DNA of 64,000 nt from the sequence record PX393108.1. One strand, written 5' to 3'. Position 1 is the stretch's first letter; each line of letters starts with the position of its first letter. Of this stretch, positions 34,989 through 53,505 are shown one piece after another. A model generated the notes under the pieces. The model was given only the letters and a program-made list of their open reading frames with translations, was not told the origin of the DNA and did not search any database. The position numbers and the translations under genes are program-made. The DNA comes from a phage.

Positions 34989-35016
34989 TTTGTGAAAATT
35001 TTTTGAAATAAAAAAA

Positions 35017-50400: not shown

Positions 50401-50564
50401 TTTTGTGAAAAAAATTTTAAAAAGTTTTAGGGAATTCTAGGGCAGGGAGGGGCAATTAAAGGATAGGATAATATATTATAAAGGGTAGAAACTAAATGAT
50501 GCCTAGAGAGGTCCAGAAAGGCCTAGATACCAAAAAGCCCTATCATTTAGATAGGGATTTAAAA

Positions 50565-51128
50565 TTATTTATCTAGTTTAGTTATTATAGCTTCTGCGGC
50601 AGCTTTTAGCTTAGATGCAGTGTTAATACGATTTTTAATTTCAGTATACGCATCGCCAAGAACATCAAGGCTATCAGAATAAACACTTACACTATTGCGT
50701 TCGCTATTTGAAATAGAACCTTTAGTTTTACGATCAAAATCGGTGTACACGTCTTGAAGATCACGGGCTGCCTTCTTTGCATCATCCAATGCATCAAGAG
50801 CTTTATTCAAAGCATTAACGTATTTTTTAGTGTCGAACATATTCTTAGAAATTTTAACAGGTGCGCGTTCAGGAGTAGCTAATGCAGATTTAGGAACCTG
50901 AGCGCCAGATGCCAATTTCTTAGAAATTTTGAAAAACGCTTTATTGAATTTATTTTCTTGACTCATCGTAAAAGAACTATTATCGATGTTGTACATTTCA
51001 ATAGCTTTAGCTTTCCACTTAAGAAAATCGCCGCGGTCTTTTGGGTCCAAGTGGAAGAATACTTTAGTAAGATCTGCTTCAGATGGTAATTTTGCTGCTT
51101 CGGTTAAAAATTCGGCATAGGTTTTCAT
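50565..51128 (-). CDS. Capsid-targeting-sequence protein (internal-protein-like), 187 aa
   Basis: N-terminus MKTYAEFLTEAA with (I/L)-x-E site; RBS AAGGAT; GAAA-loop terminator downstream. Confidence 0.55.
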   Translation of the reverse strand: MKTYAEFLTEAAKLPSEADLTKVFFHLDPKDRGDFLKWKAKAIEMYNIDNSSFTMSQENKFNKAFFKISKKLASGAQVPKSALATPERAPVKISKNMFDTKKYVNALNKALDALDDAKKAARDLQDVYTDFDRKTKGSISNSERNSVSVYSDSLDVLGDAYTEIKNRINTASKLKAAAEAIITKLDK

Positions 51129-51215: not shown

Positions 51216-51240
51216 ACTAAAAACCCCAACCTTTCGGTCG
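51216..51240 (-). terminator. GAAA-tetraloop terminator downstream of CTS gene 51253..51727
   Basis: GCCCCGACC-GAAA-GGUUGGGG followed by UUUUU on minus strand; near-identical copy at 51782-51806. Confidence 0.55.
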
Positions 51241-51252
51241 GGGCTAAGAATG

Positions 51253-51727
51253 TTATTTGATTTGTTTAGCAGACCAAATGCGGTCTTTGATGATTTTTTG
51301 GATGTCTTCAACATACTCTAGGTCATGAGCATGTGGGTTATCTTTGAAACTATAAGCACGAGCTAGTTTTTGGCCTTCAGTTTTGATTACTAAAAGCTCT
51401 TTAAGGATAGCTTCATATTTAGCGATAATTCCTTTAACAATATTTTTTTTCTTGTGCAGCTTTAGGATCTGCTTTAGGAGCAGGTTTACCCGAAGCCTTT
51501 GCAAAAGCAGCACCAGTAGCAACTAAACTTTTCCAGGCCATACTAACCGCATTTCCTGTAAATCCTTCTGCTTTCATGTCGCGAGCAAACTGGAATCGTG
51601 ATTCGTCAGAAGCATCTTTATAGGAATATTTACCCGCTGCAATGGCTGCTTTTGCGACAGCTTGAATTTCGGTGCTAGATGCTTCATTTAACACCGCTTC
51701 ATTTAAAAATTGAGCATATGATTTCAT
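51253..51727 (-). CDS. Capsid-targeting-sequence protein gene split over two frames at an A8 run (possible frameshift or pseudogene)
   Basis: N-terminal frame 51434..51727 starts MKSYAQFLNEAV; C-terminal frame 51253..51522; frames meet at A8 (51443-51450); TATAAATA late promoter upstream; terminator downstream. Confidence 0.45.
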
Positions 51728-51766
51728 CTTATTTCCTGTTTTAATTCGTGATTTAATATACTACTA

Positions 51767-51774
51767 TATTTATA
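51767..51774 (-). promoter_or_regulatory. T4 late promoter upstream of CTS-protein gene
   Basis: TATAAATA on minus strand about 40 nt upstream of ATG at 51727. Confidence 0.5.
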
Positions 51775-51781
51775 CTAAAAA

Positions 51782-51806
51782 GCCCCAACCTTTCGGTCGG
51801 GGCTAA
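51782..51806 (-). terminator. GAAA-tetraloop hairpin (second copy) upstream of CTS gene late promoter
   Basis: Same GCCCCGACC-GAAA-GGUUGGGG plus U-run as at 51216-51240. Confidence 0.5.
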
Positions 51807-51829: not shown

Positions 51830-52115
51830 TTCCACCTGCTAAGGCAAGTGTTTGTACGAAACGCCGGGATTCGAACCCGGTTATTAAGCAGTTGACGCTA
51901 CTTAATATTTTTAAAAGGCCATATCTCGACCATATCCGAACGTTCCGTCAAAAACGCTACTCGGCTTACGGCAAAGATATTTCCTCGAATCGATAATTCG
52001 GTGCGCCGTTTCTGCTGTGATGTAAGAGGGCATCAACAAATCATAAAGATTTATTAACACAATTCCTTACTCAGGGAACATCAGTCCGACGACTTACCGG
52101 TAGCGACCCGGTTTC
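51830..52115 (-). ncRNA. Non-coding tRNA-like region, possibly small stable RNAs (T4 species 1/2-like)
   Basis: About 285 nt with no ORF beside the tRNA cluster; contains T-arm-like CCGGGTTCGAATCCCGG and an 8-bp hairpin but no complete cloverleaf. Confidence 0.3.
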
Positions 52116-52466
52116 TTAATATTCTTTTAAAGCATCAATCTGTTCACGACGTTTACGCCATAAATCAATTGCTTCATACGCAGATTCAGCATTTCGAATT
52201 GGACGGCATTTATATAAAGACTTGTGATTTTGATATTGCGTAGATAACGAAATTTTATCTAAAAGGTCTTTACGTTCAAAGTATTCGTAACCATCTAAGC
52301 CAAATGAACGATTTTTGAGAAATTGCCAATGACCATATTCGTTTTCGACATAAACATAATCCGCGTGTTGATAAAGCAAATTAATTACACGTTCAGAAAT
52401 AACAGTGTCATTGTGATTAAAATAAAATGTTAAATCATGAACTACTAAATAAACATTACCTTTCAT
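52116..52466 (-). CDS. Hypothetical protein inside tRNA region
   Basis: 116 aa; RBS GAGGAAAAT. Confidence 0.45.
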   Translation of the reverse strand: MKGNVYLVVHDLTFYFNHNDTVISERVINLLYQHADYVYVENEYGHWQFLKNRSFGLDGYEYFERKDLLDKISLSTQYQNHKSLYKCRPIRNAESAYEAIDLWRKRREQIDALKEY

Positions 52467-52484: not shown

Positions 52485-52560
52485 TGGTCGAGGCAGTAGG
52501 GATCGAACCTACGACCTAGGACTTAGAAGGTCCTTGCTCTTCCTTCTGAGCTATGCCCCG
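52485..52560 (-). tRNA. tRNA-Arg (anticodon UCU)
   Basis: Acceptor CGGGGCA/UGCCUCG, anticodon loop CUUCUAA, encoded CCA. Confidence 0.8.
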
Positions 52561-52564
52561 TAAT

Positions 52565-52640
52565 TGGGGTGACCGATGGGAGTCGAACCCATGACTACGA
52601 GAATCACAATCTCGAGTTCTACCAACTGAACTACGGCCAC
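52565..52640 (-). tRNA. tRNA-His (anticodon GUG)
   Basis: Acceptor GUGGCCG/CGGUCAC, discriminator C, anticodon loop UUGUGAU, encoded CCA. Confidence 0.7.
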
Positions 52641-52753
52641 ATTAATACCTACTCCAACAATCAAGATGTCTTCACACGAAATTAAGAGAAGAGTGATCAG
52701 TTCAACCCTATAATCGCGTCAAGTAGATATTAATGTGACAGTTGTCACAAATT

Positions 52754-52828
52754 TGGCGGACGTGATAGGATTCGAACCTATAACCAATCGCTTAACAGGC
52801 GATCGCTCTGCCATTGAGCTACACATCC
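52754..52828 (-). tRNA. tRNA-Asn (anticodon GUU)
   Basis: Acceptor GGAUGUG/CACGUCC, anticodon loop CUGUUAA, encoded CCA. Confidence 0.7.
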
Positions 52829-52832
52829 AAAT

Positions 52833-52919
52833 TGGTGGGGAGTGATGGAGTCGAACCACCCGAGTCGCAATGACAATGGATTTACAGTCCACACCGCTAC
52901 CTCTACGGGATAACTCCCC
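52833..52919 (-). tRNA. tRNA-Tyr (anticodon GUA)
   Basis: Acceptor GGGGAGU/ACUCCCC, anticodon loop CUGUAAA, long variable arm, encoded CCA. Confidence 0.7.
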
Positions 52920-52932
52920 TTAATTCTTAATT

Positions 52933-53007
52933 TGGTGGCCCTGGGTGGAATTGAACCACCATCTGGCGATTATGAGTCGCTTGCTTGAACCTTCCAGCTA
53001 CAGGGCC
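52933..53007 (-). tRNA. tRNA with anticodon CAU (Ile2-type or Met)
   Basis: Acceptor GGCCCUG/CAGGGCC, anticodon loop CUCAUAA, encoded CCA; T4 tRNA-Ile uses CAU. Confidence 0.7.
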
Positions 53008-53008
53008 T

Positions 53009-53084
53009 TGGTGCTGATTGACGGAATCGAACCGCCGACCTTCTCATTACAAGTGAGTTGCTCTACCTACTGAGCTAAATCAGC
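53009..53084 (-). tRNA. tRNA-Thr (anticodon UGU)
   Basis: Acceptor GCUGAUU/AAUCAGC, anticodon loop CUUGUAA, encoded CCA. Confidence 0.8.
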
Positions 53085-53089
53085 AAAAC

Positions 53090-53179
53090 TGGCGGAGGCG
53101 ATAGGATTTGAACCTATGAGTCGCCGGAGCGACTGCCGGTTTTCAAGACCGGTGCATTAAACCACTCTGCCACGCCTCC
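53090..53179 (-). tRNA. tRNA-Ser (anticodon UGA)
   Basis: Acceptor GGAGGCG/CGCCUCC, anticodon loop CUUGAAA, long variable arm, encoded CCA. Confidence 0.8.
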
Positions 53180-53181
53180 AG

Positions 53182-53255
53182 TCTCCATACAAGGATTTGA
53201 ACCTTGGACCTCCTGATCCCAAATCAGGCGCTCTACCAAACTGAGCTACACGGAG
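53182..53255 (-). tRNA. tRNA-Pro (anticodon UGG)
   Basis: Acceptor CUCCGUG with G-U pairs, anticodon loop UUUGGGA; CCA not encoded. Confidence 0.75.
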
Positions 53256-53265
53256 TAAATTAAAT

Positions 53266-53339
<74 letters not shown>

Positions 53340-53344
53340 AAATT

Positions 53345-53431
53345 TGGTGCGAGAAGTGGGACTCGAACCCACAAGGAAATCATTCCGCAGCATTTTAAGT
53401 GCTGTGCCTTTACCAATTTGACCATTCTCGC
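53345..53431 (-). tRNA. tRNA-Leu (anticodon UAA)
   Basis: Acceptor GCGAGAA/UUCUCGC, anticodon loop CUUAAAA, long variable arm, encoded CCA. Confidence 0.8.
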
Positions 53432-53432
53432 G

Positions 53433-53505
53433 CTGGGAATAAAGGACTCGAACCTTTGCATCCTGGAATCAAAATCCAGTGCCTTACCAACTTGGCTAAT
53501 TCCCA
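53433..53505 (-). tRNA. tRNA-Gln (anticodon UUG)
   Basis: Manual cloverleaf: acceptor UGGGAAU/AUUCCCA, anticodon loop UUUUGAU, T-arm GGTTCGAGTCC; CCA not encoded. Confidence 0.8.

What the first reader, a model, noticed from the sequence alone, without database searches (positions are those of the whole stretch)
51253..51727. CTS-protein gene split by a frameshift inside an A8 run
The N-terminal frame (51434..51727) ends shortly after an A8 run in the mRNA (plus-strand T8 at 51443-51450). An overlapping frame (51253..51522) continues with protein-like sequence up to the terminator hairpin. Removing one A joins them into one ORF of about 157 codons. This could be a homopolymer sequencing error, a recently inactivated gene, or slippage that produces two isoforms.
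Basis: seen in the sequence. Interest (0 to 1): 0.5.

Follow-up and report, generated by a model that had tools for sequence, protein, structure and literature searches.

The report
Slippery A-run splits phage accessory gene
A non-essential gene of a T4-like phage, whose product probably rides inside the capsid, is cut short by one extra A in a run of A's, and the same run gains or loses a base again and again in related phages, so it is a natural mutation hot spot and not a special recoding device.

Summary
On the minus strand, ORF 51727..51434 (97 aa) ends three codons after an A8 run (plus-strand T8, 51443-51450). Removing one A joins it to 51444..51253, giving a 157-aa protein that matches phrog_2280 end to end. 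The window is a Tequatrovirus. The gene is an accessory cassette between rnaC and e.8 that T4 lacks, with an N-terminal leader resembling the T4 IPII/IPIII capsid-targeting sequence.

Most of about 400 deposited relatives carry A7 and an intact gene. At least 11 phages carry A8 and 3 carry A6, on different haplotypes, and metagenomic contigs show both states too. Two near-isogenic pairs (AUBRB02/EPIMRB01, bov10K1/bov9_1) are identical over about 50 kb except for this one base. Three A8 genomes have documented Illumina sequencing. Every variant still repairs to a full-length protein. The run is the window's only homopolymer of 8 or more, and long coding A/T runs are 8- to 13-fold depleted.

Best reading: a real, recurrent replication-slippage variant at a hypermutable tract, removing only the C-terminal helical hairpin and held rare by selection. 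A read error in this assembly is not excluded. No programmed-frameshift signals were found. Interest is moderate.

The parts
51434..51727 (-). N-terminal reading frame as it stands (97 aa, stop TAA at 51436-51434): leader, helical N-domain, Pro/Ala/Lys linker, then 3 out-of-frame codons (K-Y-C)
   Evidence: the exact 97-aa product is on record in public assemblies (19 contigs; listed in 44 index blocks)
51698..51727 (-). Codons 1-10, MKSYAQFLNE, a capsid-targeting-sequence-like leader ending in an L-x-E|A motif; a second LNE|A lies at residues 13-16
   Evidence: T4 IPII/IPIII translate to MKTYQEFIAE|A; 6/11 identical, more than T4 IPI's own 5/11; residues 1-15 are disordered in the model
51443..51450 (-). 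A8 run in mRNA sense (T8 on the plus strand). The ancestral and majority state is A7, encoding E93-K94-N95 (GAA AAA AAT). This is the hypermutable tract.
   Evidence: A6, A7 and A8 seen in relatives; sole difference in two ~50-kb isogenic comparisons
51253..51444 (-). Displaced C-terminal coding segment (63 codons plus stop, NIVKGIIAKYEAILKELL...WSAKQIK*), which encodes a helical hairpin. It is open but out of frame in this window.
   Evidence: helices 88-125 and 132-154 in the AlphaFold model
51734..51737 (-). Shine-Dalgarno-like AGGA, 6 nt before the ATG
   Evidence: read from the sequence
51767..51774 (-). TATAAATA, a T4 late-promoter-type motif 40 nt upstream of the ATG
   Evidence: The motif count in the window is not above chance (9 versus 9.9), so position only. 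The annotators of phage SA21RB mark the same motif as a late promoter.
51781..51804 (-). Upstream terminator-like hairpin AGCCCCGACCGAAAGGTTGGGGCT followed by a T-run; ends the rnaC transcript and bounds the cassette
   Evidence: homologous to the T4 e.8-rnaC spacer
51222..51245 (-). Downstream terminator-like hairpin, a near-identical second copy of the same sequence; bounds the cassette
50565..51128 (-). Neighbouring paralogous cassette: 187-aa protein with leader MKTYAEFLTE|A, same PHROG family
   Evidence: phrog_2280, E = 1.4e-53; 8/11 leader identity to T4 IPII/IPIII; weak similarity to the finding's protein, E = 0.007

Best explanation
The window carries the +1 length variant (A8) of a naturally hypermutable A7 tract inside a dispensable, late-expressed accessory gene of a T4-like phage. 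The gene product has a leader like the T4 internal-protein capsid-targeting sequence, so it is probably loaded into the prohead, trimmed by the head protease and injected with the DNA (inferred). The tract lies just after the linker between a helical N-domain and a C-terminal helical hairpin. Gaining one A by strand slippage during DNA replication ends translation three codons later, giving a 97-aa product that keeps the leader, N-domain and linker and loses only the hairpin. The same tract expands (A8) or contracts (A6) repeatedly and independently in related phages. Because almost all genomes remain in frame at A7, and because variants sit at the tips of the tree with no secondary damage, the out-of-frame alleles are probably mildly deleterious and short-lived (mutation-selection balance). 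They do not look like a programmed or fixed state. Low-level RNA polymerase or ribosome slippage on the run may let each allele make a trace of the other's product, but this would be incidental. Shown: the anatomy, the recurrence, the isogenic pairs and the genome-wide avoidance of such runs. Inferred: replication slippage as the cause, capsid packaging, and mild deleteriousness.
For: Intact A7 gene in the closest relatives; window identical to SH-2 across the gene except for the run. At least 11 A8 phages (SF2-1, AUBRB02, PYps55T, ph0021, PsgM02F, G28, teqhal, EC128, ECO07P3, FJ1, bov10K1) and 3 A6 phages (SfPhi01, 235Ecol030PP, F26) among about 400 records. A8 and A6 also occur on divergent backgrounds in ENA and Logan assemblies. 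There are 6 distinct A8 haplotypes among copies sharing the window's 97-aa product. For most fetched non-A7 copies the nearest neighbour is an A7 copy (three are ambiguous), and all repair to 153-157 aa. AUBRB02 vs EPIMRB01: 49,815 nt, 0 mismatches, 1 gap, at the run. bov10K1 vs bov9_1: 49,901 nt, 0 mismatches, 1 gap, at the run. Illumina sequencing for AUBRB02, EPIMRB01, teqhal and PYps55T, with >300x depth stated for the first two. In the window, this is the only uncompensated 1-nt homopolymer indel inside a conserved ORF relative to SH-2. Control T7 run in a-gt: 0 of 59 length variants. Coding A/T runs of 7 or more: 5 observed vs 39.4 +/- 4.2 expected; 8 or more: 1 vs 13.0 +/- 2.5. Domain layout from the model. 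T4 lacks the gene.
Against: No reads are available for this window, so its own A8 could still be a consensus miscall. The a-gt control versus this site is only suggestive statistically (Fisher one-sided p = 0.11), and the second control was uninterpretable. Some A8 haplotypes recur in several metagenomic samples, and for one of them no close A7 twin was found among deposited phages, so not all A8 alleles are demonstrably ephemeral. Allele frequencies are lower bounds taken from partial listings. Packaging and function of the protein are untested. The mutation mechanism is inferred from the pattern and from textbook T4 genetics, not measured.
Confidence: 0.6

Rival explanations
1. Sequencing or assembly artefact in this window: the true genome has A7 and an intact 157-aa gene, and the eighth A is a homopolymer miscall.
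For: The gene is otherwise identical to an A7 phage. Homopolymers are the classic site of consensus indel errors. The platform for this window is unknown. Nearly identical depositions that differ only here could also arise from ambiguous base-calling of a mixed or difficult site.
Against: The window shows no other uncompensated homopolymer frameshift in a conserved ORF across 64 kb. The same A8 state appears in Illumina-based genomes from independent labs, with >300x depth stated for AUBRB02, and in many metagenomic assemblies. Errors should hit other 7-base runs equally, but the a-gt T7 run shows 0 of 59.
Confidence: 0.2
2. Adaptive contingency (phase-variation) switch: the tract is maintained by selection, so that phage populations always contain both a two-domain and a one-domain form of an injected protein, as a hedge against variable host defences.
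For: The tract is conserved in all homologs down to about 70-75% identity while neighbouring synonymous sites vary, in a genome that otherwise purges such runs 8- to 13-fold. It lies at a domain boundary, so both products are clean. Expansion and contraction both occur, and all variants remain repairable. T-even internal proteins are described as diverse injected anti-defence proteins sharing only the CTS (PMC3012670).
Against: Out-of-frame alleles are only a few percent of isolates and mostly singletons, as expected for deleterious mutations. Codon usage alone gives GAA-AAA-AAT for E-K-N with probability 0.50. Relaxed selection on a dispensable gene (absent from T4) explains the retained tract equally well. 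No phenotype is known for either form.
Confidence: 0.15
3. Programmed recoding: transcriptional slippage or ribosomal frameshifting on the run is used to make two isoforms from one gene, as in dnaX.
For: In the A7 allele the run forms a canonical slippery heptamer, A AAA AAU, and the -1 frame stops after 3 codons, which would give exactly the 97-aa product. In the A8 allele, loss of one A in the mRNA restores the 157-aa product. A/T runs of 8-9 can slip productively in some systems (PMC1088944).
Against: No stable RNA structure follows the run (MFE z = -0.71), and the sequence has no Shine-Dalgarno-like stimulator upstream. The majority tract is only 7 long, below the 9 at which selection against slippage is typically evident. 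At least 96% of homologs are in frame and need no recoding. The trans-frame extension is too short to test for conservation.
Confidence: 0.05

Closest known systems
T4 internal proteins IPI, IPII and IPIII (capsid-targeting-sequence proteins)
   Same: N-terminal leader of the MKTYQEFIAE|A type ending in an L/I-x-E cleavage motif. Small accessory gene in the variable region around the tRNA cluster and gene e, with a late-promoter-type motif. The literature describes T-even internal proteins as highly diverse, sharing only the CTS (PMC3012670).
   Different: No sequence similarity to IPI, IPII or IPIII beyond the leader. No Pfam or NCBIfam family and no fold relative. Presence in the virion, processing and injection are untested. 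T4 itself lacks the gene.
Spontaneous frameshift hot spots at A-runs in phage T4 (Streisinger strand-slippage model; rII and lysozyme genes). From my own knowledge, not retrieved here.
   Same: +1 or -1 changes confined to a run of A's in a T4-type genome replicated by the T4-type polymerase; reversible in principle; rate rises with run length.
   Different: Those hot spots were defined in laboratory mutant hunts at runs of 5-6. Here the evidence is natural polymorphism across hundreds of wild isolates at a conserved run of 7, and no rate has been measured.
Homopolymer contingency loci (phase-variable genes) of bacteria (PMC2831843), and hypermutable poly-G tracts reported in Campylobacter phages (from memory)
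   Same: Intragenic homopolymer; several length alleles among near-identical strains; switching between full-length and truncated product.
   Different: Off-frame alleles are rare here, not balanced. The tract is short (7) and made of A rather than G/C. No demonstrated adaptive benefit or measured switching rate.
dnaX-type production of a truncated isoform at an A-run (E. coli -1 ribosomal frameshift at A AAA AAG; Thermus thermophilus A9 transcriptional slippage, PMC1088944)
   Same: A-run near a domain boundary, with the shifted frame hitting a stop almost at once, so the alternative product is a C-terminally truncated protein.
   Different: No downstream hairpin or upstream SD stimulator, a run of only 7-8, and the truncated form is produced here by a change in the DNA.

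Membership tests
T4-type CTS (internal) proteins | N-terminal ~10-residue capsid targeting sequence resembling MKTYQEFIAE | tested here: met
   MKSYAQFLNEA is 6/11 identical to IPII/IPIII with S/T, L/I and Q/E conservative changes; the paralog scores 8/11; T4 IPI itself scores 5/11
T4-type CTS (internal) proteins | Prohead-protease (gp21) cleavage motif L/I-x-E| at the end of the leader (motif definition from my own knowledge) | tested here: met
   F-L-N-E|A at residues 7-11 and V-L-N-E|A at 12-16 (translation). Sequence match only; cleavage not shown.
T4-type CTS (internal) proteins | Late transcription, so that the protein is made during head assembly | tested here: inconclusive
   TATAAATA at 51774-51767, 40 nt before the ATG and right after a terminator, but the motif is no more frequent in the window than in shuffles (9 vs 9.9)
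T4-type CTS (internal) proteins | Physical presence in the capsid and injection with the DNA | not testable with these tools
   Needs virion proteomics
Programmed -1/+1 ribosomal frameshift sites | Slippery sequence in the correct frame | tested here: met
   The A7 allele reads GA|A AAA AAU (X XXY YYZ). The A8 allele allows Lys-tRNA re-pairing +1 within the run.
Programmed -1/+1 ribosomal frameshift sites | Stimulatory element: downstream hairpin or pseudoknot, and/or upstream SD-like sequence | tested here: not met
   83 nt downstream fold at -13.4 kcal/mol, z = -0.71 against shuffles. The upstream sequence CCTAAAGCTGCACAAG has no SD-like element.
Utilised transcriptional slippage sites | Run long enough for efficient slippage (typically 9 or more A/T, sometimes 8; PMC1088944) | tested here: inconclusive
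   A8 in the window, A7 in the majority; the threshold is taken
Utilised transcriptional slippage sites | Homologs conserve a split-ORF organisation that requires slippage for the full product | tested here: not met
   At least 96% of ~400 homologs are a single in-frame ORF with A7
Contingency (phase-variable) homopolymer loci | Several tract lengths among closely related genomes | tested here: met
   A6, A7 and A8 found; two ~50-kb isogenic pairs differ only at the tract
Contingency (phase-variable) homopolymer loci | Tract retained against the genomic trend | tested here: met
   The tract is present in all homologs examined, while coding runs of 7 or more are 8-fold depleted. Caveat: codon usage alone gives the run with p = 0.50.
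Contingency (phase-variable) homopolymer loci | High measured reversible switching rate and a selective advantage for each state | not testable with these tools
   Needs fluctuation tests or amplicon sequencing, and host-range or competition assays

The most novel reading that the evidence does not exclude
The conserved A7 tract is a selected contingency switch in a capsid-packaged, injected effector. By frequent +1/-1 slippage (and perhaps RNA-level slippage in every infection), T4-like phage populations continually produce both a two-domain form and an N-domain-only form of the protein, hedging against host defence systems that recognise or are blocked by the C-terminal hairpin. This would be phase variation of a phage counter-defence protein in the best-studied phage genus.
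Probability: 0.15. Interest if true: 0.65.

Novelty: new member of a known kind. Interest (0 to 1): 0.4.

Why it matters
Practically, it tells annotators that the 97-aa and 111-aa 'hypothetical proteins' scattered through Tequatrovirus genomes are length variants of one 157-aa gene. It also shows that this tract is the first place where otherwise identical therapeutic-phage stocks diverge: two such pairs differ only there over the ~50 kb compared. Biologically, it identifies what may be the most mutable single position in these genomes, inside a gene whose leader suggests an injected internal protein, a class known to include anti-restriction factors. If the variation proved adaptive, it would be an example of phase variation in a phage counter-defence gene. 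If not, it is a clean natural illustration of strand-slippage mutation held in check by selection, in a genome that otherwise avoids long A/T runs.

Tried and rejected
(1) SH-2 as a reference for counting assembly errors: it is only ~98% identical and mosaic. It was still usable to list indels, but no near-identical genome to the window exists in the phage collection.
(2) An exact A8 30-mer scan of IMG/VR found nothing, because flanking synonymous sites vary. The protein-guided scan gave only 9 loci, all A7 or divergent.
(3) Pfam and NCBIfam gave only sub-threshold noise. Foldseek against PDB and BFVD found only the protein's own family, so no function was obtained.
(4) Rfam found only the tRNAs. 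rnaC and rnaD were located by BLAST to T4 instead.
(5) The second homopolymer control (nrdC.6/nrdC.7 junction) spans a variable two-gene boundary and could not be interpreted.
(6) A search for a frameshift-stimulating RNA structure was negative.
(7) Independent translation of the C-terminal segment was considered and rejected. There is no in-frame ATG/GTG/TTG with a usable SD after the run, and the listed TTG at 51522 is a mechanical ORF start inside the N-terminal coding region.
(8) A dN/dS test on the downstream frame within A8 lineages was not attempted. The variants are tip events sharing haplotypes with A7 copies, so the test has no power.

Full report
OBSERVATION. The region was read on the minus strand and ORFs were listed. 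ORF 51727..51434 starts at an ATG preceded by AGGA and encodes 97 aa ending ...PKAAQEKKYC*. The sequence across the junction is GCT GCA CAA GAA AAA AAA TAT TGT TAA. The run is eight A's, seen as T8 on the plus strand at 51443-51450. It is the only homopolymer of 8 or more in the whole window. A second frame stays open from the run to a stop at 51255-51253 and is followed by a terminator-like hairpin at 51245-51222. Removing one A gives a 157-aa protein that matches PHROG family phrog_2280 from end to end (E = 5.7e-60).

WHAT THE GENOME AND GENE ARE. The window is a T4-like phage of the genus Tequatrovirus. About 600 deposited phages match this stretch, but none is closer than about 98% over long segments. 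An 11-tRNA cluster lies at 52485-53505. BLAST to T4 places rnaD at 52116-52000 and rnaC at 51993-51855. In T4 the interval between rnaC and e.8 is a 284-nt spacer without a gene. In the window that spacer is interrupted by two cassettes: the finding's gene, and a 187-aa paralog at 51128-50565 in the same PHROG family. Copies of one terminator hairpin, AGCCCCGACCGAAAGGTTGGGG, flank the finding's gene at 51804-51781 and 51245-51222, and a different hairpin (50556-50538) follows the paralog. The gene is therefore accessory.

LEADER AND LIKELY ROLE. The gene's first ten residues, MKSYAQFLNE followed by A, resemble the leader of T4 internal proteins IPII and IPIII, MKTYQEFIAE followed by A. I translated those from the T4 record. 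Identity is 6 of 11, more than T4's own IPI shows at 5 of 11, and the paralog scores 8 of 11. Beyond the leader there is no similarity to IPI, IPII or IPIII. [quoted passage not shown] A TATAAATA late-promoter-type motif lies 40 nt upstream of the ATG. The motif is not enriched in the window, so only its position is suggestive. Pfam, NCBIfam and fold searches gave no functional assignment.

STRUCTURE. An AlphaFold model built on P0001, a 157-aa family member 98% identical to the repaired protein, has mean pLDDT 73. It shows:
- a disordered leader at residues 1-15;
- a compact helical N-domain at 18-75;
- a low-confidence Pro/Ala/Lys linker at 76-87;
- a C-terminal helical hairpin at 88-154.
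The tract encodes residues 93-95. The A8 allele therefore deletes only the hairpin and leaves a plausible stand-alone N-domain.

THE KEY RESULT: THE RUN VARIES AGAIN AND AGAIN. The closest relatives (SH-2, SH-1, G50, CrRp10, SA21RB) have A7 and an annotated 474-nt CDS. SH-2 is identical to the window across the gene apart from the extra A.

A8 is not unique to the window. Junction and whole-gene BLAST listings cover about 400 records with the gene:
- A8 occurs in 11 distinct phages: SF2-1, AUBRB02, PYps55T, ph0021, PsgM02F, G28, teqhal, EC128, ECO07P3, FJ1 and bov10K1.
- A6 occurs in 3: SfPhi01, 235Ecol030PP and F26.
- These counts are lower bounds, because only part of each listing is shown.
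- For six of the A8 phages I fetched the records, and each annotates the same truncated 294-nt CDS.

The large protein collection also holds truncated forms on divergent backgrounds. P0008 ends ...EKKYC, the A8 reading. P0006 and P0009 end ...EKIS.KEL...KSF, the A6 reading. I confirmed both at DNA level, and the A6 form occurs in three separate assemblies. The window's exact 97-aa product is listed on 19 contigs and in 44 index blocks. The ten contexts retrieved carry 6 distinct gene haplotypes differing by 0-37 nt.

With the run normalised, every variant copy translates to a full 153-157-aa protein with no secondary lesion. For most of them the nearest neighbour is an A7 copy. G28's closest gene relatives are all A7. 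This implies at least about six independent expansions and at least two contractions.

ISOGENIC PAIRS. AUBRB02 (A8, 166,871 bp) and EPIMRB01 (A7, 166,870 bp) align over 49,815 nt with 0 mismatches and one gap, at this run. bov10K1 (A8, 166,364 bp) and bov9_1 (A7, 166,363 bp) align over 49,901 nt with 0 mismatches and one gap, at this run. In both pairs the total genome lengths differ by exactly one base. The tract is thus the first and only position to differ between otherwise identical genomes.

ERROR OR BIOLOGY?
- AUBRB02 and EPIMRB01 were produced at the same facility with the same chemistry and assembler: Nextera, MiSeq 2x250, SPAdes 3.15.5, more than 300x depth (PMC12108427 and PMC13295566).
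- teqhal was sequenced on Illumina NextSeq (PMC7552041).
- PYps55T was sequenced on Illumina MiSeq, in a study whose sibling phages are A7 (PMC8762354).
- High-depth short-read consensus rarely miscalls a 7- or 8-base run (my own knowledge).
- Within the window, the alignment to SH-2 contains 45 gaps, but the only uncompensated 1-nt homopolymer indel inside a conserved ORF is this one.
- Errors should not depend on the gene they fall in. A control T7 run inside the alpha-glucosyltransferase gene showed 0 of 59 length variants in an evenly spaced sample, against 3 of 56 at this site in the equivalent sample. The Fisher one-sided p is 0.11, so this is only suggestive.
- A second control was uninterpretable.
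Overall the variation across the genus is best taken as real. For this particular window a miscall cannot be excluded without reads.

WHY THIS TRACT? Synonymous-codon shuffling of the window's 88 long ORFs predicts 39.4 +/- 4.2 A/T runs of 7 or more and 13.0 +/- 2.5 runs of 8 or more. The observed numbers are 5 and 1, and the single run of 8 is this one. Slippery runs are therefore strongly purged from coding sequence. That matches published genome-wide analyses, which attribute the avoidance to slippage at the transcription and/or replication level (PMC1088944).

The A7 tract in this gene is conserved in all homologs examined down to about 70-75% protein identity, while adjacent synonymous sites vary. 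Codon usage alone would produce GAA-AAA-AAT for Glu-Lys-Asn half the time. So retention can be explained by weak selection on a dispensable gene, and positive selection for mutability is not required.

The population stays about 96% in frame, and off-frame alleles are mostly singletons at tree tips. This argues that the C-terminal hairpin matters and that truncated alleles are mildly deleterious and transient (inference). Some A8 haplotypes recur across several metagenomic samples. They can therefore persist for a while.

PROGRAMMED RECODING? In the A7 allele the tract is a canonical slippery heptamer, A AAA AAU. Either a -1 ribosomal shift or an extra A in the mRNA would give exactly the 97-aa product. 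In the A8 allele, loss of one A in the mRNA or a +1 shift would restore the 157-aa protein. However:
- no stable structure follows the run (z = -0.71);
- there is no SD-like stimulator upstream;
- the majority run is shorter than the 9 at which slippage usually becomes consequential;
- homologs do not conserve a split organisation.
Any recoding is therefore likely incidental and at a low level.

COMPARISON WITH KNOWN SYSTEMS. The gene behaves like a member of the loosely defined class of T-even CTS or internal proteins. The leader and cleavage motif are met, late expression is only suggested, and packaging is untested. It is not homologous to IPI, IPII or IPIII. The mutational behaviour matches classical T4 frameshift hot spots at A-runs (textbook knowledge, not retrieved here). 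In form it resembles bacterial homopolymer contingency loci (PMC2831843), but the features that would make it a true contingency locus, a measured switching rate and an advantage for each state, are untested. It resembles dnaX only in outcome, a truncated isoform at an A-run.

VERDICT. The most likely explanation (about 0.6) is a real, recent replication-slippage expansion at a naturally hypermutable tract in an accessory, probably capsid-packaged protein gene. An assembly miscall in this window (about 0.2) is not excluded. Adaptive phase variation (about 0.15) is the most interesting reading still open. Programmed recoding is unlikely (about 0.05). This is a new example of a known kind of phenomenon. 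Interest is moderate, raised by the striking recurrence and the two isogenic pairs, and limited by the ordinary mechanism and the unknown function.

Noticed in passing
window 50565-51128 (-): A second CTS-like gene directly downstream: 187 aa, leader MKTYAEFLTE|A, same PHROG family phrog_2280 but only weakly similar to the finding's protein. Present in some relatives (SH-2, G50, SF2-1) and absent in others (G28, AUBRB02, teqhal, T4).
   Followed up: partly
window 51781-51804 and 51222-51245 (-); also 50538-50556: The finding's gene is flanked by near-identical copies of one terminator hairpin (AGCCCCGACCGAAAGGTTGGGG). T4 has a single copy in its e.8-rnaC spacer, which the window's two cassettes split. 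The repeated hairpins look like recombination joints for cassette gain and loss.
   Followed up: partly
window 51855-51993 and 52000-52116 (-): Homologs of T4 small stable RNAs rnaC (97.8% identity) and rnaD (94%) lie just upstream of the gene. Rfam has no family that detects them; only tRNAs were reported at gathering threshold.
   Followed up: partly
L022 vs L023 (AUBRB02 vs EPIMRB01); L039 vs L040 (bov10K1 vs bov9_1): Two pairs of separately named and deposited phage genomes are identical over ~50 kb apart from the single base in this tract, and differ by exactly 1 bp in total length. They are effectively the same phages under different names.
   Followed up: yes
whole window (88 long ORFs): Strong genome-wide avoidance of long A/T homopolymers in coding sequence: runs of 7 or more, 5 observed vs 39 expected; runs of 8 or more, 1 vs 13, under synonymous-codon shuffling.
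   Followed up: yes
window 35010-35016 (+): An A7 run that is A6 in phage SH-2. It lies between genes (between SH2_192 and SH2_193), so it is a second length-polymorphic homopolymer, but a non-coding one.
   Followed up: partly
proteins P0007, P0012, P0013, P0014: Database proteins that join parts of this family to unrelated sequence. P0014 carries the last ~33 residues on a different N-terminus with a PF26894 hit. P0007 is a copy split at a different site, near a GGTTTT run. These could be modular shuffling or chimeric assemblies.
   Followed up: no
L029-L038: Copies with an identical 97-aa N-terminal product differ by up to 37 nt overall, with differences in the C-terminal segment (for example IVKGIIAKY... 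vs IAKGIISRY...). This suggests recombination between the two halves of the gene near the tract.
   Followed up: no
window 52116-52466 (-) and 52485-53505 (-): The tRNA cluster has 11 tRNAs (T4 has 8; His, Asn, Tyr and Met are additions and T4's Ile is missing). A 116-aa ORF of unknown function (phrog_3355) sits between tRNA-Arg and rnaD, at a position where T4 has no gene.
   Followed up: no
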